A stretch of DNA of 64,000 nucleotides, taken from contig CAYIYK010000003.1 in assembly GCA_964367745.1 (NCBI GenBank), forward strand, positions 10,248 to 74,247, read 5' to 3'. This DNA is from an uncultured Candidatus Saccharibacteria bacterium (lineage in GTDB: Bacteria; Patescibacteriota; Minisyncoccia; Phycocordibacterales; PALSA-1337). Below are positions 8,831-34,312 of this stretch, piece by piece. Numbering within the stretch: position 1 is the stretch's first letter; every line of letters starts with the position of its first letter. The notes beneath the pieces were generated by a model, which did no database searches, was not told the origin of the DNA, and saw nothing but the letters and a program-made list of their open reading frames with translations. A program made the translations under genes and the position numbers.

Positions 8831-10471
<1,641 letters not shown>

Positions 10472-20055: not shown

Positions 20056-20724
20056 ATGAAAATCCTGATTATTGAAGACGATGTAGATATTTCCAGTTTC
20101 ATAAAGGACAATCTTACAGAGAGTACATATTCAGTTGAAGTCGCAAAGGATGGACCTGATGGATCATTTCTGGCCAGAACAAATTATCACGATGTTATCA
20201 TAATGGATTATTCACTTCCTTCAAAAGACGGAGTTTTGGTTTGTGAAGAGATAAGATCATCAGGTGTTGAAACACCCATAATATTCCTAACCGTACATAC
20301 AGACGTCAAAAAGAAGGTTAAAGCATTAGAAAAAGGTGCGGATGACTATATGACTAAACCTTTCTCTATCGAAGAGTTAAAAGCGAGGATACAAGCTCTA
20401 GTGCGTAGACCTAGGAAAATCGAAAGTCCTGTACTGATAGTTGGAGACCTAGTTTTGGATACACACAAAAGAACAGTTAGAAGAGGTGAAACACCTATTT
20501 ATCTAACTAGAAAGACTTATGATCTATTGGAATATCTTATGAGGAATAAAGGTATAGTGCTTTCAAGGGGATCTATAATGGAATATGTATGGAACTCAGA
20601 TAGTGATCCATTCTCAAATACCATAGAAGCACATATCCTAAACCTCAGAAAGAAAATCAATGTTAGAGGTAAAAAGGATATACTAAAGAATATTCCAGGT
20701 AGAGGTTATATTATGGGGTCCTAA
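20056..20724 (+). CDS. OmpR-family response regulator (receiver plus winged-helix). It is an orphan: no histidine kinase gene is adjacent.
   Basis: MKILIIEDDVDISSFIKDNL...DVIIMDYSLPSKDG...GADDYMTKPFSIEELKARIQALVRR...LTRKTYDLLEYLMRNKGIVLSR... Confidence 0.8.
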   Translation: MKILIIEDDVDISSFIKDNLTESTYSVEVAKDGPDGSFLARTNYHDVIIMDYSLPSKDGVLVCEEIRSSGVETPIIFLTVHTDVKKKVKALEKGADDYMTKPFSIEELKARIQALVRRPRKIESPVLIVGDLVLDTHKRTVRRGETPIYLTRKTYDLLEYLMRNKGIVLSRGSIMEYVWNSDSDPFSNTIEAHILNLRKKINVRGKKDILKNIPGRGYIMGS

Positions 20725-22957
20725 ACTTACCTTCTTCTATTTGCTTTATAGCCTCATCTACTTGAGACTTTATAAGTGGGAATCTTTCTTTTGCTTTCTT
20801 TAGAAGTTCAATCGCTTGGTATTCTTGTTTACTCAATAGATAAACATAAGCTAGAGATGAATATACTTCTTGATTGTCTTGATCTTTAGCTAATATCTTC
20901 TTATATATTTCAATAGCTTTATCGTACTGTTTTGACAATACATAAGCATTTATAACTCTTGGATCGCTGAATACTTCGAAATCATCTCCAAATAGCTTCT
21001 TCGCTTTTACTTCTTCACCTGCCGTTATAAGAGCTGTAACGTAAGTAGTCTTGGCGATTGGATTGTCTGTTGCTGATTGATACGCTTTGTCTAATATCTC
21101 AACTGCTTCTTTATTTTTACCGATATTTAGATAGTTGACGGCTAGTTCAAATATTATACTTTGCTTGTTTGGAGAAAGTTCATTTGCTTTTTCAAGTAGT
21201 GGTGTAGCTGTATTAAAATCTCTTATAGTATCATAATAACTTCCACCAATAATATATATTCTTGCATCATTCGGAGTTTTCTTTATTTGATTTTCTATTT
21301 CTTTCTTTGCCAAATCGTAGAATGCAGCCTTTTTATCTTGTTGCATTTGTGGATTTTGTATTACATTTGCTGAACAATTTAATAGTTGCTCAACCGACTC
21401 TTGATTTGCAACTGTCTGTCTTAGTTTGAATATTTTTTCAAATGGTACTACTGATACTGTTTGAGGATTTGAACAAGCTATAAGTGCATTTATAAGTCCT
21501 GTATTCGCTTGTATAGCGCGCACATTCACAAAATACATTGAAGTAATGAATAAGATAACAACAACAGGTACATATACATAATCTCTTACTGTTTCAGCAT
21601 CTTCAGATATTGATTTGCTGTAATTTTTAAATATAAATAAATCTTTATTCTTTCTTAATGAATGAACAAAAGCGAGCAATGTAAAGAACATTACATAACT
21701 TGTTTGATTGTCGAATACGAATACATTGTGTATTGCATATCCTACCAATAGACCGATAAGTATAGATTTTTCACCAATAGTTTTTTCACTTTTAATGATA
21801 AAGATTAGAGAGATTAAATATAGAGCTAGATACGCAACTAATCCTAGTATTCCTCCGGCAACAAACCAATCTAGGAAAACACTGTGTGCTCGATCAAACC
21901 ATTGCTCATGTCTCCACATTTCAGGATTGTAATGTGAATTGAATATATAGTTAAAGTTCTCTTGCCCAACTCCGATAATTGCTGTCTTTGGGCTCTCTGT
22001 AATTCCCTTTATAGCCATAGGCCAAATAAATCTTCTTGCTTGAGTCTTTGTATCTGAAATAGATATAGAAGCCAATCTTCCCAATACTTCATTCTTTTGA
22101 ATCCAACTAGCATTTCTATTGAAATAAAATAGTGTACCGATAACAACTACTAGTAGAATAACTGAACCAGAAACTACTCTACTTATATTTGATTGACCAC
22201 TACTCTTTCTACCAAAAATTGTATAAATAGCACATGAAGCAATAATAGCAATCGTCCAACCTATGATAGTTCCTCGAGTTGCTGTTTGAAACATTATAAA
22301 AGAGAAAAATGCTGCGGCAATAGCATATGAATAGAACAAATGCTTCTTTGCAAAATAACTTATAGCCAAATATCCCGCAATAAATGCATTAAATAACATA
22401 TAAACCGCCATGTATGCAGAGTTACCTAGAGATGCATCGACTCTACTTCCTTGATGTGTTTCTGCCCAACCGAAAAACTGTGTTAGACCGTAAAGTGCAG
22501 TTATAAATCCAGAAACAATTACAACATTGAAAAACTTATGCCAACTCTCTTTTGTCTTAAGTACTGAAGATAGAACCATGAAATAACCCCAAAGGTGTAT
22601 TATCATCAACCAACCTTCCATTCTTTCGAAGTTTGACCAAATACTTCTAAGTGGATTTAGACCAGCTAAGTCAGCAATCAGAGCAATAAGAGTAAATATA
22701 CCTATAGAAATAGATATTGCATTGCATCGCGGAAGAACACTTCTATCTGTTCCGACAACACTAGTGCCTCTTTCTCTGAAAACAAGAATCAGCCATAGAG
22801 CAAAGACAATTTCAACAATTATTCTAAAAGCGAATCCTTTACCAGTGATGAATGGAAAGAATAAAGAATTAACGACGTAAGTTGGGATAAATGGGATTAC
22901 TGCTAAACCGATAATAATTGCGTATTTGATTAAAGTATTTATTGTTGCATTGTTCAT
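20711..22957 (-). CDS. O-antigen-ligase-family (Wzy_C-like) polytopic membrane protein with a C-terminal TPR-repeat domain
   Basis: 748 aa. The N-terminal ~430 aa have about 12 TM helices and a large loop between late helices, as in WaaL/PglL. The C-terminal ~300 aa are TPR-like (YYDT..., AVNYLNIGKNKEAVEILDKAYQ, SSLAYVYLLSKQEYQAIELLKKA). Confidence 0.45.
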   Translation of the reverse strand: MNNATINTLIKYAIIIGLAVIPFIPTYVVNSLFFPFITGKGFAFRIIVEIVFALWLILVFRERGTSVVGTDRSVLPRCNAISISIGIFTLIALIADLAGLNPLRSIWSNFERMEGWLMIIHLWGYFMVLSSVLKTKESWHKFFNVVIVSGFITALYGLTQFFGWAETHQGSRVDASLGNSAYMAVYMLFNAFIAGYLAISYFAKKHLFYSYAIAAAFFSFIMFQTATRGTIIGWTIAIIASCAIYTIFGRKSSGQSNISRVVSGSVILLVVVIGTLFYFNRNASWIQKNEVLGRLASISISDTKTQARRFIWPMAIKGITESPKTAIIGVGQENFNYIFNSHYNPEMWRHEQWFDRAHSVFLDWFVAGGILGLVAYLALYLISLIFIIKSEKTIGEKSILIGLLVGYAIHNVFVFDNQTSYVMFFTLLAFVHSLRKNKDLFIFKNYSKSISEDAETVRDYVYVPVVVILFITSMYFVNVRAIQANTGLINALIACSNPQTVSVVPFEKIFKLRQTVANQESVEQLLNCSANVIQNPQMQQDKKAAFYDLAKKEIENQIKKTPNDARIYIIGGSYYDTIRDFNTATPLLEKANELSPNKQSIIFELAVNYLNIGKNKEAVEILDKAYQSATDNPIAKTTYVTALITAGEEVKAKKLFGDDFEVFSDPRVINAYVLSKQYDKAIEIYKKILAKDQDNQEVYSSLAYVYLLSKQEYQAIELLKKAKERFPLIKSQVDEAIKQIEEGKFRTP

Positions 22958-22992: not shown

Positions 22993-23940
22993 CTATTGAA
23001 ATTTCTTTAATTTATTGGCTATAAATATATCAGTATCTCTTCTAGATTCATAAGTCATACCTCCTGTATGTGGAGCGATGATTACATTTGAATATTCTTT
23101 TGCAAACTTCACTAATGGATGATTCTTGCAACTATTTTTTGTAAATAGAATCTCACCATCTAGAACGTCAGCTGTATAACCGGCAATCTTTTTTTGCTTT
23201 ATCATAGTCATCAAATCACCTTCATGAACTATTTTGCCTCTTGAAGTATTTATAAGATACGCAGTTTTCTTCATAAGACTCATAGTCTTTTTATTGAAAA
23301 GGAATTCTGTTTCTGGATTCAAATGTACGTGTATAGAAATAAAATCACTTTGTTTTATAAGCTCTTCGAAACTAACTTTTTTCCAATTTAGATTTGATGA
23401 TTCAACTTTTGGATCAGTGAATAGAACTTTCATACCCAAAGCCTCTCCATATCTTGCCATCCATTTTCCAAGTCTACCAAGTCCAACAACTCCCAATGTC
23501 TGACCATTCAGTGAATGCCCTTTGAACTTTTCTCTATTCCATTCCCCCTTTAGAACTGATTGAGTTGAACTAGGAATATGTCTTGAAGAAGATATGAGTA
23601 ATCCCAAAGCTAGTTCAGCAGTGCCAGTAATAGTATTTAGGAAATCATCTTCACCCTTTAGACTTAGAACTTTTATACCCTTTTCCTCAGCGTATTTTAA
23701 ATCGATATGATCCAAACCAGTTGTTGCGGTAACAAGGAACTTTAGATTTTTAGCTTTTGATAGGACTTCACTATTAAAGTTCAATCCCAAACCACAAACT
23801 ACTACATCATATTTTTCTATCTTTTTTAATAGTTCTTGATTTGTAGGTATAACATAATCAACCTTACCTAGAATGTTTAGAATCTTTTTTGCTTCAGGGT
23901 CGAAATCTTTACCGATTGTATTTAGTATTTTGTAGGCCAT
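22993..23940 (-). CDS. D-isomer-specific 2-hydroxyacid dehydrogenase (NAD-binding)
   Basis: GVVGLGRLGKWMARYGEALGMKVLFTD is the Rossmann motif, and the catalytic region is R...E...H (NTSRGKIVHEGDL...APHTGG). Confidence 0.7.
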   Translation of the reverse strand: MAYKILNTIGKDFDPEAKKILNILGKVDYVIPTNQELLKKIEKYDVVVCGLGLNFNSEVLSKAKNLKFLVTATTGLDHIDLKYAEEKGIKVLSLKGEDDFLNTITGTAELALGLLISSSRHIPSSTQSVLKGEWNREKFKGHSLNGQTLGVVGLGRLGKWMARYGEALGMKVLFTDPKVESSNLNWKKVSFEELIKQSDFISIHVHLNPETEFLFNKKTMSLMKKTAYLINTSRGKIVHEGDLMTMIKQKKIAGYTADVLDGEILFTKNSCKNHPLVKFAKEYSNVIIAPHTGGMTYESRRDTDIFIANKLKKFQ

Positions 23941-23978: not shown

Positions 23979-24422
23979 TTAAACCTTCGGCACCTTTATT
24001 ATAACCAACCTAGCTTTCGTAGAAGTCTTATGTTGATGTGGCTCTCCAGCAGGAATCCATAACCAATCTCCAGGTTTCATCACAACTTCTGTTCCACCCT
24101 TTATTTCTTTTGCTTTCCATTCCCTATCATCTATACTCCCATCAGCATTCTTTTTTACCCAAGGGTCTACCATTTCTCCTCCATAGATAAAGATAACTTC
24201 TCCTTCAAGACAAAACCATAGATCAGCTTCATGCTTGTGTATCTCTGCTTCATTTGAAATATTTATATCCTCCAATATATTCATAGGAACTTTATTCAAA
24301 GCAGAAAAAGCTTTTAGAGGTTCCAAAAGTTTTTTTGTTGGCGTGTCGGCACTAGGACTTGATAGAGTACTATCGATTAAATCTTTACTGATAAAAGCAC
24401 AATTTGATTTATTATTTTCCAT
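23979..24422 (-). CDS. Cupin-domain protein
   Basis: 147 aa. The beta-barrel motif FCLEGEVIFIYGGE...PGDWLWIPAGEPHQH is cupin-2-like. Confidence 0.4.
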   Translation of the reverse strand: MENNKSNCAFISKDLIDSTLSSPSADTPTKKLLEPLKAFSALNKVPMNILEDINISNEAEIHKHEADLWFCLEGEVIFIYGGEMVDPWVKKNADGSIDDREWKAKEIKGGTEVVMKPGDWLWIPAGEPHQHKTSTKARLVIIKVPKV

Positions 24423-24431
24423 TTAATTTAA

Positions 24432-26312
24432 TTAAAATTTAAATCCTTTTTTCTTTAATTCTTTTAACATGTACTCTGTGATAATCCAATCAAGTGGATA
24501 GTCTATATCTATAGATCTCTCTTTTGGTACTATATACCCTGCAATCTTATCTCCATATAACCTCTCTTCTTTCATAATCAAATCTCTTCTCATACAATAT
24601 ATTGCTGCACTTCTCTTGTATGCTACAGGTAGATCTTGTCTTCTTGTACCTTCTACTTCAGGAACAGAATATGCACTGATGAAGTCACCTTCTAATTTTT
24701 TAATCTTAATTGGATTTACATTACTTGGTACTTCAACTATTGATACTGCACTATCTGCTTTTGTATCTATAAGTTTTTGAATTGTTCCATCGATATCGTC
24801 TATAGTTCTAAAAGGTGAAGTTGGCTGAAGAATAACTACATAGTCGATAGTGATATTATTTTTCTTTTCATAAAAATCTATTGCATGTTGCATTACAGGA
24901 AGATGTGGAGTTGAATCTAGAGCCAATTCTTTTGGTCTCATAAAAGGTACATCTGCACCATACTTCTTACACACATCGGCAATCTCTTTGTCATCTGTTG
25001 AAACGATAAGATGATTTATCAATTTACTTTTCTTTGCAGCATCGATTGTATATGCAATAAGAGGTTTATTGCCAAGTTTCTTTATATTCTTACCCGGAAT
25101 ACCTTTTGACCCTCCGCGAGCTGTAATAACGCCAAGGACGTTTGGAGTTCTGTATTCCCTATCTACATGTTCTTCTGTAAGCGGTTCAAATTTCTTTATA
25201 TCTTTTATTATTTTTTTATCCAAAATATCATGGAAAAGATTCGAGAAAATTCCATTTAGATGAAGTCTTGGTCTCATAGCGTAAACCATATCACTCGTGA
25301 TTATTGTTCCAGCTTTAATATCTCTTGAAGCAACGAGTGTTTTGTTGAAATAAGGTCTAAACTTATTTTGTGCACCTTCCAATTCTTTTTCCTTTTGACC
25401 GTAGAAAATATTTGTATCTATTTTCTTATATTCATTTTTCTTAATACCAGAGACCAATTGTTTCATTTCTTCTGGAGTTACTGAAGCTTTATGGTCTGAA
25501 CCCCAAAGGCCTCGGTCTAGAGAAAAGTGTTTCTCTATAACCTGCGCACCCATTTTTACTGCAGCTAAAGGAATAGTATTATCTCCAACTGAATGATCAG
25601 AAAAACCGATGATCGCTTGAGGGTATTTTTCTCTAAAATATTCTATAGTAGAAAGGTTAAAAGCTTCTGGAGGACATGGATATTCACTAACGCAATATAG
25701 AATAATAATTGGTGACCCACGCTTTGTTATATAGTCAACAACGTCATCCAACTCTTTGTGACTAACCATTCCTGTTGAAATGATTATTGGTTTTTGTGTC
25801 TTTGTAATAAAGTCCAAAAGAACATGATCCTGAACATCACCAGAACCTACTTTCCAGAAAGGTACATCTAGATTCTCAAGCTTAACCGCTGCCATTCTAG
25901 ACATCGGAGTTGAGAAGAATATAATTCCCTTTTTTTCTGAATATCTTTTTATCTCTTTGAAGAATTCTATAGGTGCTTCTTCAGTATTTCTTTTAACCCA
26001 AGAATATCTATCACTGCCTTTGAAGTGCGGAGAAACTACATTTATATTTGCTTGTTCATCTTCAACTTCATGAGTTTGAAATTTCACAGCATGTGCACCA
26101 GCTTTTACTGCTTCGTCGATAAGCTTTTTTGCATTTTTAATATAGACTTTTAGAGGTTGAGACTCTTGTGTTTGTATAAAATTCTTACCGATTTCAGCAA
26201 TAACAAAAACTTTATCTTTTGATATGATCTTAGAGATAGCGTGAGGTTTCACTATTTTTGAATTTTTGTTCTTACTGGCTTTAGAAGATTTAACAGACTT
26301 TTTTGTTTTCAT
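24432..26312 (-). CDS. Bifunctional fusion: N-acylneuraminate (nonulosonic acid) synthase NeuB with SAF domain, plus CMP-N-acylneuraminate cytidylyltransferase NeuA
   Basis: N-terminal half: VFVIAEIGKNF...AVKFQTH...IIILYCVSEYPCPPEAFNLSTI...GFSDHSVGDNTIPLAAVKMGAQVIEKHFSLD, then an SAF domain (LVASRDIKAGTIITSDMV). C-terminal ~230 aa: LGVITARGGSKGIPGKNIKKLGNKPLIAYTIDAA...LIVSTDDKEIADVCKKYGADVPFMRPKELALDST, the NeuA/CMP-Kdo-synthase-like fold. The first ~25 aa are Lys-rich. Confidence 0.75.
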   Translation of the reverse strand: MKTKKSVKSSKASKNKNSKIVKPHAISKIISKDKVFVIAEIGKNFIQTQESQPLKVYIKNAKKLIDEAVKAGAHAVKFQTHEVEDEQANINVVSPHFKGSDRYSWVKRNTEEAPIEFFKEIKRYSEKKGIIFFSTPMSRMAAVKLENLDVPFWKVGSGDVQDHVLLDFITKTQKPIIISTGMVSHKELDDVVDYITKRGSPIIILYCVSEYPCPPEAFNLSTIEYFREKYPQAIIGFSDHSVGDNTIPLAAVKMGAQVIEKHFSLDRGLWGSDHKASVTPEEMKQLVSGIKKNEYKKIDTNIFYGQKEKELEGAQNKFRPYFNKTLVASRDIKAGTIITSDMVYAMRPRLHLNGIFSNLFHDILDKKIIKDIKKFEPLTEEHVDREYRTPNVLGVITARGGSKGIPGKNIKKLGNKPLIAYTIDAAKKSKLINHLIVSTDDKEIADVCKKYGADVPFMRPKELALDSTPHLPVMQHAIDFYEKKNNITIDYVVILQPTSPFRTIDDIDGTIQKLIDTKADSAVSIVEVPSNVNPIKIKKLEGDFISAYSVPEVEGTRRQDLPVAYKRSAAIYCMRRDLIMKEERLYGDKIAGYIVPKERSIDIDYPLDWIITEYMLKELKKKGFKF

Positions 26313-26408
26313 ATGTTATATCCTATGCTATTTAAAAATTTTTGCAACAAAAAAAATCCACCCAGTAAAACCAGGTGGAAATTGTGTTGAGTGTTCAGTA
26401 CTCGAAGA

Positions 26409-27347
26409 TCAAAGCCTGCGAGCGGTGACCACAACCGACGGGTGGTATGCGGTAAAGTTGAGGAGATTCTGGTCTGCCTCAAAAACGCTACGGATTCCAA
26501 TACCAACAATCTTGAGCTTGTCCTCAATCGGAAGCTTGTCGAGCGGTTCCCAACGGCACCAAGTGGCCCAGGCATTGCGAATGAAATCGACGATTCGACT
26601 CCCAACAACAGGAACGAGGGTTTCATTCACACGGAAGATCTCGAAACCATTTTGCTCGAGAGCAGACTTGAGATCAACAAGCGAGAATGCCTTTGCTTTG
26701 GGTGCCCAGAGATTTTCGCGAGTGAAATCAGGATACTTTGACCGAACATAATTGTAAGCTGCATCGTGCGCAATCCTATAAAGCGGATGCGAGAGTTCGG
26801 TTGTGATCTGATCCGGCCCCGGCTCAGACTTTGACCGGAAATCGTGCAAATTGCACTTCCAATCCGAATAATTGGACGGACCGAAGTCAAAACTGAGAGT
26901 TCCACGAACCTTGAGGCAAGAACTGATTGCTTTCAAGGAAGCATCGAGGGTATCCCGCAAAAGATGAAACATCTGACAACAGACAGCGGCGTCATGAAGA
27001 CCTACAACATGCCGATCCAGAAATTCCGCTTTCATTGTGTAAGCATTCACCCTCGGATTACCCATCAAATTGAGGAGAAGGAAATGCATCATGCTTTCAT
27101 TCGGCTCAACAGCCGAAACGAGCGCCTTCGTCCTCTTGAGAATAACTGCTGTACTGACACCAGTGCCGGCGCCAATCTCCAACACTGAATTGATTCCATT
27201 TTTGTTGGCTTGAATCGCCTCACTAACAACGAATTCAGCCATTTCAGTGTAGTATTTGTCACGACCATTGAAGGCCGAGTATGCTGCGCCGACATTCCCT
27301 TCGAAGAGTTTCGAACCGAGGATTGCACTAACATTACTTGTACTCAT
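26409..27347 (-). CDS. Class I SAM-dependent methyltransferase of unknown substrate, in a ~1-kb tract of anomalous GC (~50%)
   Basis: 312 aa. Motif I is VLEIGAGTGVST. The DNA of this gene is visibly GC-rich against a ~30% background, which produces many spurious overlapping ORFs in the six-frame track. Confidence 0.55.
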   Translation of the reverse strand: MSTSNVSAILGSKLFEGNVGAAYSAFNGRDKYYTEMAEFVVSEAIQANKNGINSVLEIGAGTGVSTAVILKRTKALVSAVEPNESMMHFLLLNLMGNPRVNAYTMKAEFLDRHVVGLHDAAVCCQMFHLLRDTLDASLKAISSCLKVRGTLSFDFGPSNYSDWKCNLHDFRSKSEPGPDQITTELSHPLYRIAHDAAYNYVRSKYPDFTRENLWAPKAKAFSLVDLKSALEQNGFEIFRVNETLVPVVGSRIVDFIRNAWATWCRWEPLDKLPIEDKLKIVGIGIRSVFEADQNLLNFTAYHPSVVVTARRL

Positions 27348-27523
27348 TTTTTTAAGAACTGCATCATGACTTTATTATCATGATTTTCGTTTAATCTATA
27401 ACATATTATTGTAAATTTAGCAATAGTACGATATTTAAATATTAAACTATAGAAAATAATTGACGTAATACTTTTTTAATGATATTGTATATTAAATTTA
27501 AACAAACAGTTCATTAAAAAAAT

Positions 27524-28477
27524 ATGACAGCAAAAAATGTTGGAAATTGGCAAAAATGGGCCTTCTTGGAAGGAATAACAAGGACCTTATCAAGGACTCT
27601 ACAAAAAGTTGTTGGTTCCGTATCTAACAACTGGGAGAATACCCTACTAGCTGCCGGCATAATCGGTTTTGTTCAAGTTCTGTCAGCTGTAATCATTACA
27701 AGAAAGACGAAAGAAAAACTTCTGTGTGATCCAGCAGGAATCATCGGCTGTTTGATTTTTGGTCTTATAGCTCTAGTATGTACTGTATTAGGCTTCGCAA
27801 CTTTCCTTTATGGAGGAGATATTACTGTTAGTACTTTTATCATTGCCCTGTCCATCATTCCAAGTATGATAATCGACATCGTCTTCTTCAACTACAAATC
27901 TAGTCGTAGAGAATGGATTGGGATTTTTGTGGCGGTTATAGCTGGTTGGGCAGTTCTAGACTTCCCAAACTTAGCTAGCATGCTTAAGTTGCCTATGTGG
28001 GTAGGCCTTTCATTCATCACCATGATCCTTGTGGCAATAAATCAAGGAATCACACAATCAATCAAAGATATTTCCCCGATGTTCAAAAACTTCTGGGGTG
28101 GTATGGTGGCACTAATACTGTCACCAGTTATCATGATCGTGATTGGCAAAGGTGGATTCTTACTCAGTTTCCCAGATAATAAAGTACTATGGTTTACCTC
28201 AGCTATGATTGGGATCATAGTGATAGCCATATGGTCTTTCAACCTTCTGAGCTACAAGGACGGTGCGAGTATCGCATTAAAAAAACTTGTAGTAAGTAGT
28301 ATTTACTTTATCAGTACCACGTTTCTTGGAAGCATCGTATTTAACGAAGCAATGACTGCTGGGAAAATTATTGCAATCCCTCTTTTTATTATTTCATACT
28401 TCCTTATGAGTAAGGAAGCCTACAATTTCGTACTAGCGAAGCGGATACCGAAGTGGATAAAGTGGATATTGAAGTGA
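27524..28477 (+). CDS. Polytopic membrane protein (about 10 TM helices), uncharacterised; possibly a transporter
   Basis: 317 aa, almost entirely hydrophobic helices. It sits between the methyltransferase and neuC on the opposite strand. Confidence 0.35.
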   Translation: MTAKNVGNWQKWAFLEGITRTLSRTLQKVVGSVSNNWENTLLAAGIIGFVQVLSAVIITRKTKEKLLCDPAGIIGCLIFGLIALVCTVLGFATFLYGGDITVSTFIIALSIIPSMIIDIVFFNYKSSRREWIGIFVAVIAGWAVLDFPNLASMLKLPMWVGLSFITMILVAINQGITQSIKDISPMFKNFWGGMVALILSPVIMIVIGKGGFLLSFPDNKVLWFTSAMIGIIVIAIWSFNLLSYKDGASIALKKLVVSSIYFISTTFLGSIVFNEAMTAGKIIAIPLFIISYFLMSKEAYNFVLAKRIPKWIKWILK

Positions 28478-28507
28478 TGTCTAAGTAAATACAGTAATCT
28501 CTCAAAG

Positions 28508-28537
28508 CCCTCACGTAAAAAGCGTGGGGGTCTTTTT
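28508..28537 (+). terminator. Rho-independent terminator
   Basis: A ccctcacg ... cgtggggg stem (8 bp, one G-U pair) followed by TCTTTTT. Confidence 0.5.
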
Positions 28538-29693
28538 ATTCAACAAAAGTCTTTTGAGTATAAAGAGGTACAGTAGCTATAACCTCTGCAATCTTTTTAC
28601 TTGTACCTTCTGCAAAATATAGACTTGATGATTCGTATCTGCCTTTTTTAACTTGTTTCTCTATTGCTTTCTTTATAGCTTTAATATCATGGTCTACAGT
28701 TACTACATTTTCTGCACTCAATCTTTTGAATTGTCTATTACCAATATTCACCACAGGCAAACCCATAAAAGAAGATTCCTTTATTCCAGCTGATGAATTC
28801 CCTATCAAACATAGACTGTTATTCAATAGCCAAATAAAATCCTTTGGACCCATATATCGCATGAAGCGTATTTTATGTCCTTTAACTTCATCTTTAAAAA
28901 TTCGAAGCTCATGTGATATATCTTCTGCACCGGCATCAGCATTTGGCCAAAACCAAAGTGTTGGAATCTTTAGACTATGTACAGCATCAAGGATTTTCTT
29001 TGTATTTTCATGTACATGCTTCACATCCATAATATCAGGATGATACATAACTATTAGATATCCTTTCTTTAGATCAAAAAGGGCCCCACTTCCTGTTTTC
29101 TTTATATCGAATTTATGTTTATTTTTTGCTAATTTTTGTACAACTTCTATTTCTGGACTACCAAAATTGAAAACGTGAGATTCTCTTTCTCCAAGTCTCA
29201 ATACTCTTTTTCTTGCTGGTTCATTTGTTGTAAAGTGAATATGAGAAAGTTTTGTGATAGCGTGTCTTACACTTTCATCTATTGATCCAGATACATCACC
29301 ACCTTCTATGTGTGCGATAGGTATAGATAAATATGCAGCTGCAATTGTAGCTGATAGAACTTCAAATCTATCACCTCTTACCACAACGACATCAGGTTTA
29401 ATCTGATTAAAAAGTGTAGTGAATTCTATTATTCCTAGTCCTGTTGTTTTTGCTTTTACGATTGTATCATTCCCTTCTAGATTGAAATGTAGTTCGTATA
29501 GCTTGTTATATCCGTCTTCCGTCAAAAGTTTTCTTATATCAGCAAGTTTTGAAGTATAACGAGACAATAAAGCTGTACCTCCAACTATTATATGTAGGTC
29601 AATATCCTTTCTTTTCTTTAGTTCTTCTAGAATAAGAAAGTTACGACTATAGTGTATGAAACTTGTAATAACAAAGCAGACTTTTCTCTTCAT
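28536..29693 (-). CDS. neuC: UDP-N-acetylglucosamine 2-epimerase (NeuC-type, hydrolysing)
   Basis: 385 aa. VVVRGDRFEVLSATIAAAYLSIPIAHIEGGDVSGSIDESVRHAITKLSHIHFTT is the conserved epimerase core, and the GT-B-like two-domain layout is present. Confidence 0.75.
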   Translation of the reverse strand: MKRKVCFVITSFIHYSRNFLILEELKKRKDIDLHIIVGGTALLSRYTSKLADIRKLLTEDGYNKLYELHFNLEGNDTIVKAKTTGLGIIEFTTLFNQIKPDVVVVRGDRFEVLSATIAAAYLSIPIAHIEGGDVSGSIDESVRHAITKLSHIHFTTNEPARKRVLRLGERESHVFNFGSPEIEVVQKLAKNKHKFDIKKTGSGALFDLKKGYLIVMYHPDIMDVKHVHENTKKILDAVHSLKIPTLWFWPNADAGAEDISHELRIFKDEVKGHKIRFMRYMGPKDFIWLLNNSLCLIGNSSAGIKESSFMGLPVVNIGNRQFKRLSAENVVTVDHDIKAIKKAIEKQVKKGRYESSSLYFAEGTSKKIAEVIATVPLYTQKTFVE

Positions 29694-29696: not shown

Positions 29697-30680
29697 CTAG
29701 CTAATATGCAGTATTTTTCGTAAAAATGCAAATCTATTTGAATACTTTATTATGTATATTATTTTAACCAAGATTGGTGATAGTGATACGCGCGCTTTAA
29801 GATAAATATTCTTCGGAATTTCTATATCTTTTGATAATGTATCCTTCCTTGCAACCAAACGTATATGGTGGGTATTCAATCCATCTTGTTTTTGCTTCTT
29901 TATTTGTTCTTGCTTTTTACCTTCATCAACATCCATATAGACGATTACGAAACCTGCTTTTTTACACATTAAAGAAAGTGTCTCTGGTGTAAACATATAG
30001 ACATGGTCAATCTGCACTCCAGACTGAAGCTTCCCCATTCTTCTAACTTGATGTCTCCAGTTTTTCACTGCAAGGAAAATATGACCACCTGGTTCCAGTG
30101 CTTCATGTGACCAATTTAGGAATTTCATTGGATCTAAAAGATGGTTCAAACTTTGAACACAAAGAATATTTTTTACTTTATTCTTAATATCCATATTCAC
30201 ATCTTCAAAAAGCCCGCGAATAGTCTTTACGCCTTTTGATTCTGCATAACCCGATTCTTCAAGCGAAGGTTCAATACCTAGCAGTTCTAGATTTTTCCTA
30301 GATTCCCTCATACCAAAAAGGATTCCACCAGTACTTGAACCAACGTCGATAGTAAGTCCGTCTTTTACATATTTACCCATATAACTGACTATAGCCTTAC
30401 CGAATCTTCTAGCATTCTCGAAGTTCTTCTCTAGATCAGAATTGTATTCACGATTCTTTATACTAGCTCTATCTTGTCTATAAAAAGACATATAGTATTC
30501 ATCATAATCTTTTGCAGTCATACGTGGGTTAATAAAGACTAGACTGCACTTCTTACACATTACTGTATTTGCTTTGAGATTGTTTACACTTCTTTTAACA
30601 ATTATTTTAAAATCATTTCCACCACAAAGATTACATGCGATGTATTCTAAATTCTTTTTATTATAATCAAATCCTTCCAT
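29697..30680 (-). CDS. SAM-dependent methyltransferase with an N-terminal CxxC...CxxC zinc ribbon (architecture like NDP-hexose C-methyltransferases of the TylCIII type); paralog 1
   Basis: CNLCGG...CKKCSLVFINPRMT zinc ribbon, then motif I IDVGSSTGGILFG, then IDHVYMFTPETL. It is a clear paralog of the ORFs at 33365-34312 and 34384-35520. Confidence 0.55.
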   Translation of the reverse strand: MEGFDYNKKNLEYIACNLCGGNDFKIIVKRSVNNLKANTVMCKKCSLVFINPRMTAKDYDEYYMSFYRQDRASIKNREYNSDLEKNFENARRFGKAIVSYMGKYVKDGLTIDVGSSTGGILFGMRESRKNLELLGIEPSLEESGYAESKGVKTIRGLFEDVNMDIKNKVKNILCVQSLNHLLDPMKFLNWSHEALEPGGHIFLAVKNWRHQVRRMGKLQSGVQIDHVYMFTPETLSLMCKKAGFVIVYMDVDEGKKQEQIKKQKQDGLNTHHIRLVARKDTLSKDIEIPKNIYLKARVSLSPILVKIIYIIKYSNRFAFLRKILHIS

Positions 30681-30681: not shown

Positions 30682-32040
30682 TTATTTAATTAAATTAATT
30701 ATATAATCTGCAATTCTCTTTCCTGATAAACCGTCTGTATAACTTGTCTGTTCTTTTACCAAGATCTCTCTTTCTTTACTCTTTACTGATGGATCATCAA
30801 GATATTTATTTATTGAATCCAATAACTCTTGTTTGCTATTAACTAGATCGATAGCACCGGTCTTTAATGCATTCTTATAATGCCAAGTTCTATAGTATTG
30901 TACAGGAGATTTCAATAATTTTGGAATTATATTTATTTCAAAATTTATATTTATTACAGGTTTATTAAAAATACTTGCATCGATACTAATACTTGAAGCA
31001 TAGCAAACCAAAACAGACATATGATAAAGAGTATCCTGCAAATGTTCTAGATCTGCTTTATTCATATCCCAATCTACACCTCTTTTTGTACCAAAACGTA
31101 TACCAGGCTTATCATATTTTAGATCTGGTCTCTTTGATATTTCTTCTTCATCAACAAAGTCATTTGGTTGGAATCGGACCAATAATTCACATTCGTATTT
31201 CAATTCATTTGAGTGAATAGTTTTTTGCAAAAGGTCGATTATATCCCAATCTGCAGAACTGAACGCTCTCCCCATTGGAGCGTATACTATCAATTTCTTA
31301 TCACTTGATATTTTTATTTTATTAAAAAATTCTTCTCTTAAAATAGGTTTCCTTGTGTAGAAGAAATCGTATTGTGGCAGACCGCTGATAAAAATATCTT
31401 CCGATTTCATTTCATTCAAATCAATCATCTCCTTTTTTACGATATCGTTAAAAACTATAGCTTTATCAGGTAATAATCTTAAAATGCATCTTGATGTAAC
31501 TTTGTCCCAAGAGTTTATATAGCCTATCGTTTTTATTTTTCTTTTTTTTGCTTCTCTTAAAAGATTGATTTCTATTTCTTCAAATAGATGTGCGGTGAAA
31601 ACAAGATCTGGTGAATATTTATCAAAATATTCACTATATGTATTGTCTTTTATTAAAATAAAATCCAAATATCGTACGATTCTTCTTATCACAGGCCAAG
31701 CCAAAATATAGTTCGATACTTTACCAAAATAGTATCCGAAAAATCTTCCTTCATATTCACTTACCATTTTCCTTTTTAAATCTGTTGTTTCAGTTCTAAG
31801 TAAAGTGAATTTCATCTTTGAGAAAAACCCATCAAACATTGGTACAGATTTTTGCTCGACAAATTCAAATACTATTCTTGGATCATTGAATTCATTTTTA
31901 TAATAATCAACTTTTTGTTGTGATTTTGTAAATAGAACAATTTTAATATCTTTATTTAAAAGAAGATTTTCCAAAATCGGTGTTCGTAGAATATTTTTTA
32001 CTTCTACACCCTCAAAGATTGTTACAAATATTGTCTTCAT
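30682..32040 (-). CDS. TagF-like / 'HP-motif' GT-B family protein (CDP-alditol-phosphotransferase-like or CMP-sugar-transferase-like); paralog A
   Basis: 452 aa. The shared core with the paralogs is IKTIGYINSWDKVTSR, IVFNDIVK, GLPQYDFFY, LLVRFQPNDF, KPVININ. Here the His of the HP-type motif is replaced (RFQP). Confidence 0.4.
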   Translation of the reverse strand: MKTIFVTIFEGVEVKNILRTPILENLLLNKDIKIVLFTKSQQKVDYYKNEFNDPRIVFEFVEQKSVPMFDGFFSKMKFTLLRTETTDLKRKMVSEYEGRFFGYYFGKVSNYILAWPVIRRIVRYLDFILIKDNTYSEYFDKYSPDLVFTAHLFEEIEINLLREAKKRKIKTIGYINSWDKVTSRCILRLLPDKAIVFNDIVKKEMIDLNEMKSEDIFISGLPQYDFFYTRKPILREEFFNKIKISSDKKLIVYAPMGRAFSSADWDIIDLLQKTIHSNELKYECELLVRFQPNDFVDEEEISKRPDLKYDKPGIRFGTKRGVDWDMNKADLEHLQDTLYHMSVLVCYASSISIDASIFNKPVININFEINIIPKLLKSPVQYYRTWHYKNALKTGAIDLVNSKQELLDSINKYLDDPSVKSKEREILVKEQTSYTDGLSGKRIADYIINLIK

Positions 32041-33365: not shown

Positions 33366-34312
33366 TATCTTTTAAGGAATTGCTGTAGACGTACTGTAAG
33401 TAAATATCTTAAATAAATATAATATTTGTTTATTGATAATAAAGTAAAAATATAATTACCCTTACCTATTGTTAAATCCTTGAAGGGGGTTTTATTCAAT
33501 CTTTTAGCCACAATGCGAATATGTACTTTTGGAATTCCCTGCATGACCTTCTTTTTTGTATATTCATTAGCTTCAAAGAAAAGGATTTCGAATCCAGCTG
33601 ATACAATGAAATCTCTCAAAACCTCAGGTGTATACATATAGACATGGTCGATCTTTACACTATTTTCATACTTTCCTGCTTTTTGTAATTGCTGTCGAAA
33701 ATTCATAACTTCAACTACAAGAAGTCCATTATCAAAAAGAGACTCGTGAGCCCATTTGAAAAAATATCTAGGATCCAAATAGTGATTTAAAGCTTGAGTA
33801 CTGACTATAACTGCGAATTTTTCTTTTTTATTATGATCTTCGATTAGAGCATGATAAGTCTTTATTCCTTGAGAATTCGCATAATCTGATTCAATCTTTG
33901 ATGGCTCAAGACCAATTACTTCTCTATTCAAAAATCTTTTCATTCCTTCCAAAACTCCTCCGACACCAGAACCGACTTCCATTATTGAGCCTTTTACTTT
34001 TAGATATGGTGATATAAGCTCACCCAAGAATTTGCCGTGTCCGATGGTTGATTCGAACAATTTCTTACAATCAAAATCTGAACCTGCTTCGCCATTGTTT
34101 ATAGTTTTTTGTCTGTATTCTTCTTCATAATAGAATTTGTAACCAGACTTTGTCATTCTAGGATTTATATAAATAAGCCCGCATTTTTTACAAATAACAG
34201 AATTCAAAGCAAGACCATCAGTGCCTTTTTTTGACAGGATTTTATAATTGTTACTTAAACAGAAACTGCAAGCAATATTCTCCTTTTCAATTGTATTGTA
34301 TGGGAAAGACAT
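33365..34312 (-). CDS. Zn-ribbon SAM-dependent methyltransferase; paralog 2. The likely start is at 34312; the six-frame ORF extends to 34432.
   Basis: CSFCLS...CKKCGLIYINPRMT, then MEVGSGVGGVLEG, then IDHVYMYTPEVL. It is collinear with paralog 1. Confidence 0.55.
   Translation of the reverse strand: MSFPYNTIEKENIACSFCLSNNYKILSKKGTDGLALNSVICKKCGLIYINPRMTKSGYKFYYEEEYRQKTINNGEAGSDFDCKKLFESTIGHGKFLGELISPYLKVKGSIMEVGSGVGGVLEGMKRFLNREVIGLEPSKIESDYANSQGIKTYHALIEDHNKKEKFAVIVSTQALNHYLDPRYFFKWAHESLFDNGLLVVEVMNFRQQLQKAGKYENSVKIDHVYMYTPEVLRDFIVSAGFEILFFEANEYTKKKVMQGIPKVHIRIVAKRLNKTPFKDLTIGKGNYIFTLLSINKYYIYLRYLLTVRLQQFLKR

What the first reader, a model, noticed from the sequence alone, without database searches (positions are those of the whole stretch)
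24432..29693. NeuB-NeuA single-polypeptide fusion (synthase + SAF + cytidylyltransferase) with a Lys-rich N-terminal tail, next to a hydrolysing NeuC
A 626-aa ORF joins a complete N-acylneuraminate synthase (TIM barrel plus SAF domain) to a complete CMP-NeuAc synthetase domain. Fusion of consecutive pathway enzymes suggests channeling of free sialic acid straight to the CMP-activated donor. The first ~25 residues (KTKKSVKSSKASKNKNSKIVKP) are a basic, low-complexity extension. The adjacent 2-hydroxyacid dehydrogenase and cupin genes might modify the nonulosonate, but that is speculation. Which nonulosonic acid is made (Neu5Ac versus a Leg/Pse/Kdn-type variant) cannot be read from the sequence. 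The absence of a PseB/LegB-type dehydratase and an aminotransferase in the window favours Neu5Ac or a Kdn-like sugar.
Basis: partly seen in the sequence, partly recalled or inferred. Interest (0 to 1): 0.55.

Follow-up and report, generated by a model that had tools for sequence, protein, structure and literature searches.

The report
Recent NeuB–NeuA enzyme gene fusion
In one uncultured ultra-small (Patescibacteria) bacterium, two neighbouring genes that build and then CMP-activate a sialic-acid-like sugar have recently merged into a single gene; the fusion is real but ordinary, because the same two enzymes are fused repeatedly, usually in the opposite order, in other environmental microbes.

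Summary
The 626-aa ORF (24432-26312, minus strand) is real. It joins a NeuB-family nonulosonate synthase (TIM barrel plus SAF) to a NeuA-type CMP-nonulosonate synthetase through a 7-residue linker (DREYRTP). Catalytic residues are intact in both halves.

The fusion is recent. It occurs only in one cluster of at least 90% identity (15 variants from NCBI, JGI, ENA and Logan, all with the same junction). Relatives at 72-81% identity have the same gene order but separate neuB and neuA genes, 1-11 nt apart or overlapping by 4 nt.

The architecture is not unique. Among the top 150 cluster representatives, 56 are NeuA-NeuB fusions (reverse order) and about four are NeuB-NeuA. NeuB-NeuC and NeuB-NeuC-NeuA fusions also exist.

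The Lys-rich tail is disordered and hypervariable. It is also present on unfused relatives, so it is unrelated to the fusion.

NeuC is the hydrolysing type but lies two genes away from the fusion. No LegB/C or PseB/C/G homologue occurs in the window or in about ten syntenic loci. This favours a Neu5Ac-type product, although the synthase belongs to a deep, uncharacterised clade. Channelling is untested.

Overall: a new variant of a known kind, of modest interest.

The parts
24432..26312 (-). neuB-neuA fusion ORF, 626 aa plus stop codon: a nonulosonate synthase joined to a CMP-nonulosonate synthetase
   Evidence: ORF list. Pfam NeuB, SAF and CTP_transf_3. 15 public variants.
26238..26312 (-). 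N-terminal Lys/Ser-rich tail, aa 1-25: a disordered, hypervariable extension
   Evidence: pLDDT is 44-56 for aa 1-20. It is variable or absent in unfused relatives and is the most variable part among the cluster variants.
25413..26216 (-). NeuB TIM-barrel domain, aa ~33-300 (Pfam NeuB aa 64-294). Catalytic equivalents are E40, K77, Q79, K154, D159 (in place of Nm E134), H240, E260 and H262
   Evidence: Pfam. Residue mapping onto N. meningitidis NeuB. AF2 pLDDT 93. Foldseek hit to 1xuu at E 9e-26.
26145..26186 (-). Clade-specific beta1-alpha1 loop, aa 43-56 (KNFIQTQESQPLKV): canonical NHxG is replaced by NF plus a 9-residue insertion directly after catalytic Glu40
   Evidence: Alignment against Neu5Ac, Leg-context, Pse-context and SpsE references. 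Conserved in alignment A3. Confidently modelled as coil.
25164..25337 (-). SAF (antifreeze-like) domain, aa 326-383, with Arg347 equivalent to Nm Arg314
   Evidence: Pfam SAF at 27.4 bits. The Arg is conserved in all 32 clade members sampled.
25143..25163 (-). Fusion junction and linker DREYRTP, aa 384-390. It occupies the place of the neuB stop codon and neuA start codon of the relatives
   Evidence: DNA alignment A1 against L001-L003. Identical in 13 variants. No in-frame ATG or GTG nearby; the only start-like codon is a TTG at aa 364.
24435..25133 (-). NeuA-type cytidylyltransferase domain, aa 394-626, with P-loop ARGGSKG (398), QPTSP (496), RRQD (557) and DID (602)
   Evidence: Pfam CTP_transf_3. 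PDB hits 6ifd at 116 bits and 1eyr at 87 bits with the motifs aligned. 79-83% identical to the stand-alone NeuA of syntenic relatives.
28536..29693 (-). NeuC: hydrolysing UDP-sugar 2-epimerase, the first step of the pathway
   Evidence: TIGR03568 at 342.7 bits against a cutoff of 235.9. PDB: LegG 5xvs at 191 bits and human GNE epimerase 4zht at 186 bits, against 57 bits or less for non-hydrolysing enzymes.
26409..27347 (-). SAM-dependent methyltransferase, a strain-specific insertion between the EamA gene and neuBA. Probably not part of the core pathway
   Evidence: Pfam Methyltransf_12/25. GC is 0.40 against about 0.33 in the surroundings. Absent in L010, the 97%-identical relative.
26357..26379 (-). 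Terminator-like hairpin followed by T8, lying between the inserted methyltransferase and the neuBA start
27524..28477 (+). EamA-like 10-TM permease on the opposite strand, in the variable spacer between neuC and neuBA
   Evidence: Pfam EamA. Only 48-59% identical to the copies in L002 and L010, and absent in L001 and L012.
23979..24422 (-). Small cupin protein of unknown role, an accessory member of the locus
   Evidence: Pfam Cupin_2, plus a weak YhcH / NeuAc-anomerase-like hit at E 5e-4. Present in L002/L003 at 77% identity but absent in L010, L001 and L012.
22993..23940 (-). D-2-hydroxyacid dehydrogenase (short PGDH / glyoxylate-reductase-like), a conserved companion of this neuB clade. Role unknown
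   Evidence: Pfam. PDB 1wwk at 158 bits. Syntenic in L001, L002/3/11, L007, L010, L012, L013, L015, L017 and L018.
29697..30680 (-). Methyltransferase conserved next to neuC (73-98% identical in relatives)
   Evidence: Pfam Methyltransf_23. Synteny.
30682..32040 (-). TagF-like (Glyphos_transf) glycosyltransferase, a candidate nonulosonate transferase
   Evidence: Pfam Glyphos_transf at E 8e-11. NCBIfam BFO_1060 family at E 3.6e-14, which is below its cutoff. BFO_1060 is the orthologue of the genetically proven Pse/Leg-derivative transferases of T. forsythia (PMC5420450).
32037..33365 (-). Second TagF-like glycosyltransferase, also a candidate nonulosonate transferase
   Evidence: Pfam Glyphos_transf at E 1.7e-8. 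BFO_1060 family at E 1.1e-12, below cutoff. Syntenic in relatives.
20711..22957 (-). Wzy_C (O-antigen-ligase / O-oligosaccharyltransferase-like) membrane protein with C-terminal TPR repeats, at the end of the conserved locus
   Evidence: Pfam Wzy_C and TPR. Syntenic in L001, L002, L010, L012 and L013.

Best explanation
The ORF is a genuine bifunctional enzyme created recently, in one species-level lineage of Patescibacteria, by read-through fusion of two adjacent genes, neuB and neuA. The neuB stop codon and the neuA start codon were replaced by a 7-residue linker. The protein carries out steps 2 and 3 of a three-step pathway. Step 1: NeuC hydrolyses and epimerises UDP-GlcNAc to ManNAc. Step 2: the N-terminal NeuB/SAF module condenses that sugar with PEP to give a nonulosonic acid, most probably with a Neu5Ac-type core. 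Step 3: the C-terminal NeuA module uses CTP to make the CMP-activated donor. The two neighbouring TagF-like transferases then probably add the sugar to a surface glycan, which the locus's methyltransferases may decorate. The fusion guarantees 1:1 stoichiometry and co-localisation of the two activities. Proximity channelling of the free sugar is possible but not required, because close relatives do the same job with two translationally coupled genes. Shown here: the domains, the intact catalytic residues, the recency and independent recurrence of the fusion, and the locus conservation. Inferred: the activities, the identity of the sugar, the transferase roles, and any kinetic benefit.
For: Domain composition and order are established by Pfam. 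Fold: the AF2 model of the NeuB half has pLDDT 93.4 and pTM 0.90, and its best structural matches are NeuB, PseI and SpsE. Catalytic residues of the NeuB half are conserved: E25, K53, Q55, K129, H215, E234, H236, D247 and R314 in N. meningitidis numbering. The roles of E25, E134, E234 and R314 are taken from PMC8208679. The NeuA motifs (P-loop, QPTSP, RRQD, DID) align to solved CMP-NeuAc synthetases. Recency: the NeuB half nests inside a clade of stand-alone NeuBs in an NJ tree. The nearest relatives (NeuB 72-81% identical, NeuA 78-83%, NeuC 78-80%) have the same gene order with separate genes: TAA-C-ATG in L001, an ATGA overlap in L002/L003 and an 11-nt gap in L012. All 120 best relatives of the NeuA half are stand-alone proteins. 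Reality: 15 variants from four data sources share an identical junction, and there is no in-frame ATG or GTG from which a separate NeuA could start. Pathway context: NeuC is of the hydrolysing type. The locus is conserved with two TagF/BFO_1060-like transferases, a methyltransferase, a dehydrogenase and a Wzy_C protein. No LegB/LegC/PglD/PseB/PseC/PseG homologue occurs in the window or in the syntenic loci L001-3, L007, L010-16 and L018.
Against: No activity has been measured. Both halves fall below every equivalog cutoff: NeuB_NnaB 252 bits against 400, PseI 214 against 340, PseF 172 against 206. The synthase clade has an altered active-site loop (NF plus a 9-residue insertion in place of NHxG) and carries E134D, so its substrate could differ from ManNAc. 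Automated KO-type names for clade members lean towards legionaminic acid enzymes. NeuC scores equally well against LegG and against the human GNE epimerase domain. Genes for diacetamido precursors could lie outside the 64-kb window. The conserved 2-hydroxyacid dehydrogenase has no place in the simple three-step scheme.
Confidence: 0.8

Rival explanations
1. The pathway makes legionaminic acid or another 5,7-diacetamido-type nonulosonate, not Neu5Ac. The ORF would then be a LegI-LegF fusion and the epimerase a LegG acting on UDP- or GDP-diNAcBac made by genes elsewhere in the genome.
For: JGI KO-type names for clade members are 'N,N'-diacetyllegionaminate synthase' (P0074) and 'CMP-N,N'-diacetyllegionaminic acid synthase' (10 named NeuA relatives). 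The highest reference identity of the NeuB half is to a Leg-context haloarchaeal enzyme: 36.7%, against 34.1% for N. meningitidis NeuB. The best PDB hit of NeuC is LegG at 191 bits. The best NCBIfam model for the NeuA half is a diacetamido-sugar enzyme, PseF.
Against: The differences are marginal: 37% against 34% identity, and 191 bits against 186 for human GNE. No dehydratase, aminotransferase or N-acetyltransferase of the Leg/Pse routes occurs in the window or in about ten independent syntenic loci with 6-10 kb flanks. Such genes do sit beside the unrelated fusion in L004 and in the reference loci L008 and L009.
Confidence: 0.25
2. The fusion was selected because it channels free nonulosonate from the synthase active site straight to the cytidylyltransferase.
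For: Fusions among neuB, neuA and neuC recur many times independently in Patescibacteria and DPANN archaea, as AB, BA, BC and BCA arrangements. The linker is short (7 residues) and invariant within the species cluster. It tethers NeuA to the SAF domain, which in NeuB dimers caps the partner's active site; this last point is my own knowledge of the 1XUZ structure, not something tested here.
Against: Both domain orders occur, and the reverse order dominates by 56 to about 4, so no single geometry is favoured. The closest relatives keep separate genes. Each fusion follows the local gene order, as expected from simple loss of a stop codon between overlapping or abutting genes. No kinetic or structural test was possible.
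Confidence: 0.2
3. The fusion is an artefact (a sequencing or assembly indel), or a decaying pseudogene in which one half is inactive.
For: The fused state needs only one substitution in the stop codon and a 1-nt frame change relative to L001, which is the kind of change an error could produce.
Against: There are 15 distinct variants from four independent data sources on about 25 contigs, 11 of them of exactly 626 aa, and the junction peptide is identical in all. Catalytic motifs are intact in both halves. The halves remain 78-83% identical to functional-looking relatives.
Confidence: 0.02
4. This divergent NeuB clade, together with its conserved 2-hydroxyacid dehydrogenase, makes a chemically different keto-deoxy sugar acid. 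That would mean a different hexose acceptor or a further redox-modified nonulosonate, so calling the ORF NeuB/NeuA would mislabel the chemistry.
For: The clade has an invariant signature at the active-site face: NF plus a 9-residue insertion after the catalytic Glu, together with E134D, N74F and N184S. It forms a deep separate branch. All equivalog cutoffs are missed. The dehydrogenase is syntenic in at least 9 independent loci.
Against: The metal ligands, the PEP-binding lysines and serines, and the acetamido-binding Arg314 equivalent are all conserved. E134D is common in environmental NeuBs (PMC8208679). The partner epimerase is a canonical hydrolysing NeuC.
Confidence: 0.15

Closest known systems
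N-acetylneuraminate synthase NeuB of Neisseria meningitidis (PDB 1XUU/1XUZ), with its relatives PseI (8H2C) and SpsE (1VLI)
   Same: Same TIM-barrel plus SAF fold (Foldseek E 9e-26 to 5e-23). Conserved metal-binding His pair, PEP-binding Lys and Ser residues, E25, E234 and R314.
   Different: Only 31-37% identical. The beta1-alpha1 loop has NF plus a 9-residue insertion in place of NHxG, and E134 is Asp. It scores below the TIGR03569 and TIGR03586 cutoffs. It carries a disordered Lys-rich tail and a fused C-terminal NeuA.
CMP-N-acetylneuraminate synthetases (NeuA/CNS: Vibrio 6IFD, N. meningitidis 1EYR, mouse 1QWJ)
   Same: Full-length alignment at 84-116 bits with the P-loop, QPTSP, RRQD and DID motifs.
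   Different: It has no start codon of its own and exists only as the C-terminal domain of NeuB. Its best NCBIfam model is PseF, at 172 bits against a cutoff of 206.
NeuA-NeuB(-SAF) fusions of metagenomic Patescibacteria and DPANN archaea (e.g. P0018 Woesearchaeota, P0123 Patescibacteria), plus the rarer NeuB-SAF-NeuA fusions (P0127, P0214, P0261)
   Same: The same two enzymatic modules in one polypeptide. P0127 is also followed by a 2-hydroxyacid dehydrogenase.
   Different: 56 of the top 150 representatives have the opposite order. The same-order fusions lie on other branches of the NeuB tree, so they arose independently. P0214 sits in a Pse/Leg-type locus with a dehydratase and an aminotransferase. 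I found no publication that describes any of these fusions.
Other natural fusions in sialic-acid pathways: mammalian GNE (epimerase-kinase), the Leptospira interrogans NeuB-phosphatase fusion (PMC3438082), and E. coli K1 NeuA with a C-terminal esterase domain (Liu et al. 2004, reference seen)
   Same: Consecutive or auxiliary pathway steps joined in one reading frame.
   Different: Different domain pairs. In the L. interrogans case the authors argued that the fused phosphatase domain points to an animal-like route through a phosphorylated intermediate. Here the fusion adds no new step.
Tannerella forsythia nonulosonate transferases Tanf_01245 / TFUB4_00887 / BFO_1060 (PMC5420450)
   Same: The window ORFs 30682-32040 and 32037-33365 are of similar size (452 and 442 aa). 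They hit the BFO_1060 family model at E 3.6e-14 and 1.1e-12, and they lie next to the CMP-sugar genes and a methyltransferase, as in T. forsythia.
   Different: The scores (53 and 48 bits) are far below the family cutoff of 200, so this is a resemblance and not membership.

Membership tests
NeuB family of nonulosonate synthases (Pfam PF03102 + SAF PF08666) | Significant match to the NeuB TIM-barrel model and presence of a C-terminal SAF domain | tested here: met
   NeuB 223 bits (cutoff 22) and SAF 27.4 bits (cutoff 21). AF2 model plus Foldseek to 1xuu, 8h2c and 1vli.
NeuB family of nonulosonate synthases | Catalytic and ligand residues of N. meningitidis NeuB: E25, K53, Q55, K129, E134, H215, E234, H236, D247, R314 | tested here: met
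   All are conserved except E134, which is Asp (D159). E134D is a documented natural variant (PMC8208679).
N-acetylneuraminate synthase equivalog (NCBIfam TIGR03569 NeuB_NnaB) | Whole-protein score above the curated cutoff of 399.65 bits | tested here: not met
   252.4 bits.
Pseudaminic acid synthase equivalog (TIGR03586 PseI) | Score above 340.25 bits, and a PseB/PseC/PseG context | tested here: not met
   214.5 bits. No PseB/C/G homologue in the window or in syntenic loci.
Legionaminic acid synthase LegI | Groups with characterised LegI, and sits in a locus with a LegB/PglF-type dehydratase, a LegC/PglE aminotransferase and a LegH/PglD acetyltransferase | tested here: inconclusive
   No characterised LegI sequence was available. 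36.7% identity to a Leg-context haloarchaeal enzyme. The context genes are absent locally but could lie elsewhere in the genome.
   DAHPS models give 25-27 bits. Foldseek gives DAHPS and KDO8PS at E ~1e-8, against 1e-25 for NeuB.
CMP-nonulosonate synthetases (NeuA/LegF/PseF; Pfam CTP_transf_3) | Full-length match with the P-loop (R/K-GGSKG), QPTSP, RRQD and DxD motifs | tested here: met
   97.8 bits. Alignments to 6ifd, 9ftb and 1eyr cover aa 5-228 of the domain with the motifs conserved.
PseF equivalog (TIGR03584) | Score above 205.7 bits | tested here: not met
   172.5 bits.
KdsB (CMP-Kdo synthetase) | Full-length match to KdsB models or structures | tested here: not met
   29-48 bits against cutoffs of 155-281, and only the N-terminal ~60-130 residues align.
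Hydrolysing UDP-GlcNAc 2-epimerase NeuC (TIGR03568) | Score above 235.9 bits and clearly better than the non-hydrolysing WecB | tested here: met
   342.7 bits against 69.1 for wecB. Hydrolysing LegG and GNE structures give 186-191 bits, against 57 or less for non-hydrolysing enzymes.
BFO_1060 family nonulosonate transferases (NF046086) | Score above 200 bits | tested here: not met
   52.7 and 47.8 bits. This is a resemblance only.
Substrate-channelling bifunctional enzyme | Kinetic or structural evidence that the intermediate passes between the active sites without equilibrating with bulk solvent | not testable with these tools
   Needs enzyme kinetics or a structure of the oligomer. The full-length MSA for AF2 was unusable.

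The most novel reading that the evidence does not exclude
The fusion itself is incidental. What would be interesting is the synthase clade it belongs to. This clade is large, dominated by Patescibacteria and DPANN archaea, and uncharacterised. It has a rebuilt active-site loop (NF plus a 9-residue insertion in place of NHxG, with E134D). It always travels with a hydrolysing NeuC, a NeuA, TagF-like transferases, methyltransferases and a D-2-hydroxyacid dehydrogenase. It might make a so-far undescribed (for example redox-modified or O-methylated) sialic-acid-like sugar that decorates the surface or pili of ultra-small episymbiotic cells. In that case the repeated AB, BA, BC and BCA fusions would reflect selection for compact, coupled pathways in minimal genomes.
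Probability: 0.15. Interest if true: 0.6.

Novelty: new variant of a known kind. Interest (0 to 1): 0.3.

Why it matters
This is a clean natural example of how bifunctional enzymes arise. Sister lineages at 72-81% identity still have abutting or overlapping neuB and neuA genes, while one species-level lineage has lost the stop and start codons and fixed a 7-residue linker. The split and fused forms are natural isogenic-like pairs, so they could be used to test whether fusing a synthase to its activating enzyme gives any kinetic benefit. A one-polypeptide route from ManNAc to the CMP-sugar could also be useful for chemoenzymatic sialylation. More broadly, the locus shows that Patescibacteria carry a conserved cluster for sialic-acid-like sugars whose synthase, dehydrogenase partner and product are all uncharacterised. 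The fusion alone does not change what is known about nonulosonate biosynthesis.

Tried and rejected
(1) tRNA and Rfam scans of the window found nothing.

(2) A look-up of contigs encoding the window's exact protein returned nothing, although the cluster look-up did find the protein.

(3) Literature searches for a described NeuB/NeuA fusion, for nonulosonic acids in Patescibacteria/CPR, and for a link between nonulosonates and 2-hydroxyacid dehydrogenases gave nothing relevant. Lewis et al. 2009 is not held in the library.

(4) tblastn of the NeuB half against plasmids gave only hits of 36% identity or less, labelled pseI, neuB or BpsE. These were of no use for assigning specificity beyond supplying two context-labelled references.

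(5) A combined alignment of the fusion with NeuB-only and NeuA-only relatives, meant for a full-length AF2 model, was mis-aligned: MAFFT stretched the NeuB-only rows over the NeuA half. I therefore modelled only the NeuB half, so domain-domain geometry was not assessed.

(6) I tried to decide Neu5Ac versus Leg from identity to references, from NCBIfam scores and from the NeuC PDB hits. All differences were too small to count.

(7) The idea that the Lys-rich tail marks the fusion was rejected.

(8) The idea that the cupin is a core pathway enzyme was weakened, because it is absent from the 97%-identical relative L010.

(9) The artefact and pseudogene explanations were rejected.

Full report
OBSERVATION. 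The window contains an ORF at 24432-26312 on the minus strand that encodes 626 aa. Its ATG is preceded by AGGA 8 nt upstream; the only alternative in-frame start in the first 33 codons is a GTG at codon 21, which has no Shine-Dalgarno-like sequence. Pfam places three domains in one frame: NeuB at aa 64-294 (223 bits), SAF at aa 326-383 (27.4 bits, cutoff 21) and CTP_transf_3 at aa 394-612 (97.8 bits). The gene at 28536-29693 passes the hydrolysing-epimerase equivalog TIGR03568 (342.7 bits against 235.9) and scores only 69 bits on the non-hydrolysing wecB model. In the PDB it matches the hydrolysing enzymes LegG (191 bits) and the human GNE epimerase domain (186 bits), far above the non-hydrolysing epimerases (57 bits or less). 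It is not directly adjacent to the fusion: a methyltransferase (26409-27347, minus strand) and an EamA-like permease (27524-28477, plus strand) lie between them.

The NeuB half matches solved NeuB (1xuu, 160 bits), SpsE (149 bits) and PseI (138 bits). An AlphaFold2 model of aa 1-388, built on 88 relatives, has mean pLDDT 93.4 and pTM 0.90. Its best structural neighbours are NeuB, PseI and SpsE (E 9e-26 to 5e-23), whereas DAHP and KDO8P synthases appear only at about 1e-8. I mapped the window protein onto N. meningitidis NeuB. The equivalents of K53, Q55, K129, S132, S154, Y186, S213, H215, E234, H236, D247 and the SAF-domain R314 are conserved (window K77, Q79, K154, H240, E260, H262, R347), and so is E25 (window E40). 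The one change among the proposed catalytic residues is E134 to D159. PMC8208679 names E25, E134 and E234 as the residues potentially involved in catalysis and R314 as the conserved SAF-domain residue, and it reports E134D in 29% of environmental NeuBs and in the archaeal and eukaryotic profiles. The change is therefore a known variant, not a defect. The NeuA half aligns over its full length to CMP-NeuAc synthetases (6ifd 116 bits, 9ftb 110, 1eyr 87, mouse 1qwj 86), with the ARGGSKG P-loop and the QPTSP, RRQD and DID motifs in place. KdsB structures match only the first ~60 residues, at about 30 bits.

THE FUSION IS REAL AND RECENT. The exact protein is in public collections. Its 90%-identity cluster holds 15 variants from NCBI, JGI/IMG, ENA and Logan on about 25 contigs, and 11 of them are 626 aa long. 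JGI already labels them 'sialic acid synthase SpsE/CMP-N-acetylneuraminic acid synthetase'. All 13 long variants carry the same junction, HVDREYRTPN(V/I)LGVITARGG. The next-closest NeuB relatives (70-81% identity) are all stand-alone proteins of about 365 aa, and all 120 best relatives of the NeuA half (64-83% identity) are stand-alone proteins of about 240 aa. Three independent syntenic loci have the same gene order with separate genes:
- L001 (Logan): neuB and neuA are 1 nt apart (TAA C ATG).
- L002/L003/L011 (NCBI and ENA MAGs): they overlap by 4 nt (ATGA).
- L012: they are 11 nt apart.
In the DNA alignment, the window has GAA where L001 has the stop codon TAA, the ATG is gone, and a one-base length difference puts the two frames in register. 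In a neighbour-joining tree of NeuB domains, the window plus P0001 form a terminal twig inside a clade of unfused enzymes. There is no in-frame ATG or GTG near the junction (only a TTG at codon 364, inside SAF), so NeuA can be made only as part of the fusion. The nearest species-representative genome (L010, 97% identity, also fused) is titled 'uncultured Candidatus Saccharibacteria bacterium'. Named protein relatives come from Parcubacteria/Paceibacterota MAGs. I therefore place the organism in Patescibacteria without resolving the class.

THE ARCHITECTURE IS NOT UNIQUE. I searched 1.84 billion cluster representatives exhaustively with the full protein and classified the best 150 with BLAST. 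The result was 56 NeuA-NeuB fusions (the opposite order) and 1 NeuB-NeuA (P0127). Pfam adds three more in the window's order: P0214, P0261 and a NeuB-NeuB-SAF-NeuA protein, P0156. NeuB-NeuC fusions (P0036, P0122) and a 986-aa NeuB-NeuC-NeuA triple fusion (P0010) also exist. These fusions lie on different branches of the NeuB tree, so they arose independently. Each reflects the local gene order. For example, L018 has separate neuB-neuC-neuA-dehydrogenase genes in the same order as the triple fusion of L007. Reverse-order examples come from Woesearchaeota and Patescibacteria. I found no paper describing any NeuB/NeuA fusion. Known fusions in this pathway involve other partners, such as the Leptospira NeuB-phosphatase fusion and mammalian GNE.

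THE LYS-RICH TAIL. Unfused relatives carry comparable tails (P0002 MKAKPVKKSKKSKKSVSH; P0005 MPKKVSKIKKPKIAKTIKAKNKVRS) or none at all (P0009, P0019). Within the species cluster the tail is the most variable segment, with several substitutions and one 3-residue deletion. In the model it has pLDDT 44-56. It is a disordered, fast-evolving basic extension of this NeuB lineage and is unrelated to the fusion. Any role, such as membrane or nucleic-acid affinity, is speculation.

WHICH SUGAR? Sequence does not decide it. Both halves miss every equivalog cutoff: NeuB_NnaB 252 bits against 400, PseI 214 against 340, PseF 172 against 206. Identity to a Neu5Ac reference (N. meningitidis NeuB) is 34%, to a Leg-context haloarchaeal enzyme 37%, to a Pse-context PseI 32.5% and to SpsE 31%. 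The whole clade forms a separate deep branch. It has its own signature at the active-site face: AEIGKNF(I/V)Q(T/S) plus a 9-residue insertion where every reference has AExGxNHxG, together with E134D, N74F and N184S. Automated KO-type names lean towards Leg enzymes. Context points the other way. Reference LegB-, LegC-, PglD-, PseB-, PseC- and PseG-type proteins find nothing by tblastn in the 64-kb window or in the syntenic loci L001-3, L007, L010-16 and L018. They do find their homologues next to the unrelated fusion in L004. With a hydrolysing NeuC as the only upstream enzyme, the most economical pathway is UDP-GlcNAc to ManNAc to a Neu5Ac-type acid to its CMP ester. I rate this at about 0.6, Leg-type at about 0.25 and something else at about 0.15.

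THE LOCUS. The following block recurs in relatives: two TagF-like transferases, a methyltransferase, neuC, a variable spacer, neuB, neuA, a variable region and then a 2-hydroxyacid dehydrogenase and a Wzy_C/TPR protein. The two TagF-like proteins (30682-33365) give weak hits (E 4e-14 and 1e-12, below the cutoff) to the BFO_1060 family. The T. forsythia members of that family are genetically proven Pse/Leg-derivative transferases that sit next to the CMP-sugar genes and a methyltransferase (PMC5420450). They are therefore the best candidates for the nonulosonate transferases, but this is an inference. Further downstream the window holds more methyltransferases, a PhyH-like dioxygenase, a GT9, a Wzx-like flippase and many GT2/GT4 genes up to about 53.9 kb, followed by type IV pilus genes. 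The terminator-like hairpin at 26379-26357, followed by T8, lies after the inserted methyltransferase. It suggests that neuBA, the cupin, the dehydrogenase and Wzy_C form a transcription unit separate from neuC.

MECHANISM AND VERDICT. The best-supported reading is a functional bifunctional nonulosonate synthase / CMP-nonulosonate synthetase that arose by loss of the stop codon between abutting genes and became fixed in one species-level lineage. The fusion enforces equal amounts and co-localisation of the two activities. Channelling remains an untested possibility. Three things weaken it as the driver: unfused sister lineages, the predominance of the opposite domain order, and the fact that each fusion mirrors the local gene order. 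This is a new variant of a known kind, already present and auto-annotated in databases. Its main value is as a natural fused/split pair for testing the benefit of fusion, and as a pointer to an uncharacterised sialic-acid-like pathway in Patescibacteria. Interest: 0.3.

Noticed in passing
window 26145-26186 (aa 43-56 of the fusion) and D159; also P0002-P0125 and loci L001-L018: The whole NeuB clade to which the window's enzyme belongs has AEIGKNF(I/V)Q(T/S) plus a 9-residue insertion in place of the canonical AExGxNHxG loop. This holds for stand-alone and fused members alike, from Patescibacteria and from some archaeal MAGs. The clade also has invariant E134D, N74F and N184S, and it forms a deep branch apart from the Neu5Ac, Leg-context and Pse-context references. 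It has not been characterised biochemically, as far as I could find.
   Followed up: partly
window 22993-23940 (-); L001 11209-12156, L002 11383-12327, L007 5707-6666, L010 7896-8843, L012 ~9080-10018, L013, L015, L017, L018: A D-2-hydroxyacid dehydrogenase (short PGDH / glyoxylate-reductase-like; best PDB hit 1wwk at 158 bits) is syntenic with neuB/neuC/neuA of this clade in at least 9 independent loci. In L005 and L007 it directly follows the fused genes. It has no role in the textbook CMP-Neu5Ac pathway, and I found no literature link.
   Followed up: partly
window 26357-27523: The methyltransferase at 26409-27347 has a higher GC content (0.40 against ~0.33) and its own terminator-like hairpin followed by T8. 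It is absent from the 97%-identical relative L010, whose EamA gene is only 59% identical although the flanking genes are 92-98% identical. The neuC-neuBA spacer is therefore a variable cassette site: empty in L001 and L012, EamA only in L002 and L010, EamA plus methyltransferase here.
   Followed up: partly
window 23979-24422 (-): The small cupin between neuBA and the dehydrogenase gives a weak hit to the YhcH / N-acetylneuraminate anomerase family (E 5e-4). It is present in L002/L003 (77% identical) but missing in L010, L001 and L012. Conversely, L001, L002 and L012 carry a gene of 331-343 aa with no Pfam match at that position, and this gene is absent from the window.
   Followed up: partly
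P0010 / L007 2744-5704; P0036, P0122; P0156; L004 18365-20314: Other fusions of nonulosonate-pathway genes occur in metagenomes: a 986-aa NeuB-NeuC-NeuA triple fusion, NeuB-NeuC fusions, a NeuB-NeuB-SAF-NeuA protein, and a 649-aa Epimerase_2 + Glyphos_transf (NeuC-like + TagF-like transferase) fusion.
   Followed up: partly
P0018, P0123 and 54 other representatives: The reverse-order NeuA-NeuB(-SAF) fusion is about 14 times more frequent than NeuB-NeuA among the best 150 cluster representatives. It occurs in Woesearchaeota and in Patescibacteria. PGAP names one of them simply 'N-acetylneuraminate synthase', ignoring the NeuA domain.
   Followed up: partly
window 30682-33365 (-), perhaps also 36479-37873 (-): There are two tandem TagF-like (Glyphos_transf) proteins of about 445 aa with weak similarity to the T. 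forsythia BFO_1060 / Tanf_01245 nonulosonate transferases. In L001 a further 452-aa gene with no Pfam match, upstream of these, is 24% identical to one of them. This could be a family of CMP-sugar transferases specific to this group.
   Followed up: partly
window 20711-22957 (-): A 748-aa Wzy_C (O-antigen ligase / O-oligosaccharyltransferase-like) membrane protein with C-terminal TPR repeats closes the conserved locus, and type IV pilus genes lie at 57.5-64 kb. Whether the glycan is attached to pilin or to another protein was not examined.
   Followed up: no
window 33365-36471: Two methyltransferases with N-terminal Cys-rich extensions lie at 33365-34432 and 34231-35520. The mechanically listed ORFs overlap by about 200 nt, so the start of the second is probably downstream. 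A PhyH-like dioxygenase lies at 35521-36471. All three flank the transferases and may be glycan-tailoring enzymes.
   Followed up: no
window 53949-55823 (-): A TraG/VirD4-like type IV coupling-protein ATPase (624 aa) lies between the glycosyltransferase block and the pilus genes.
   Followed up: no
L014, L017, L018: Some relatives carry a second, more distant neuB/neuA (and neuC) set within 6 kb of the clade-type set, at 27-39% identity. This suggests that two different nonulosonate pathways sit side by side in those genomes.
   Followed up: no
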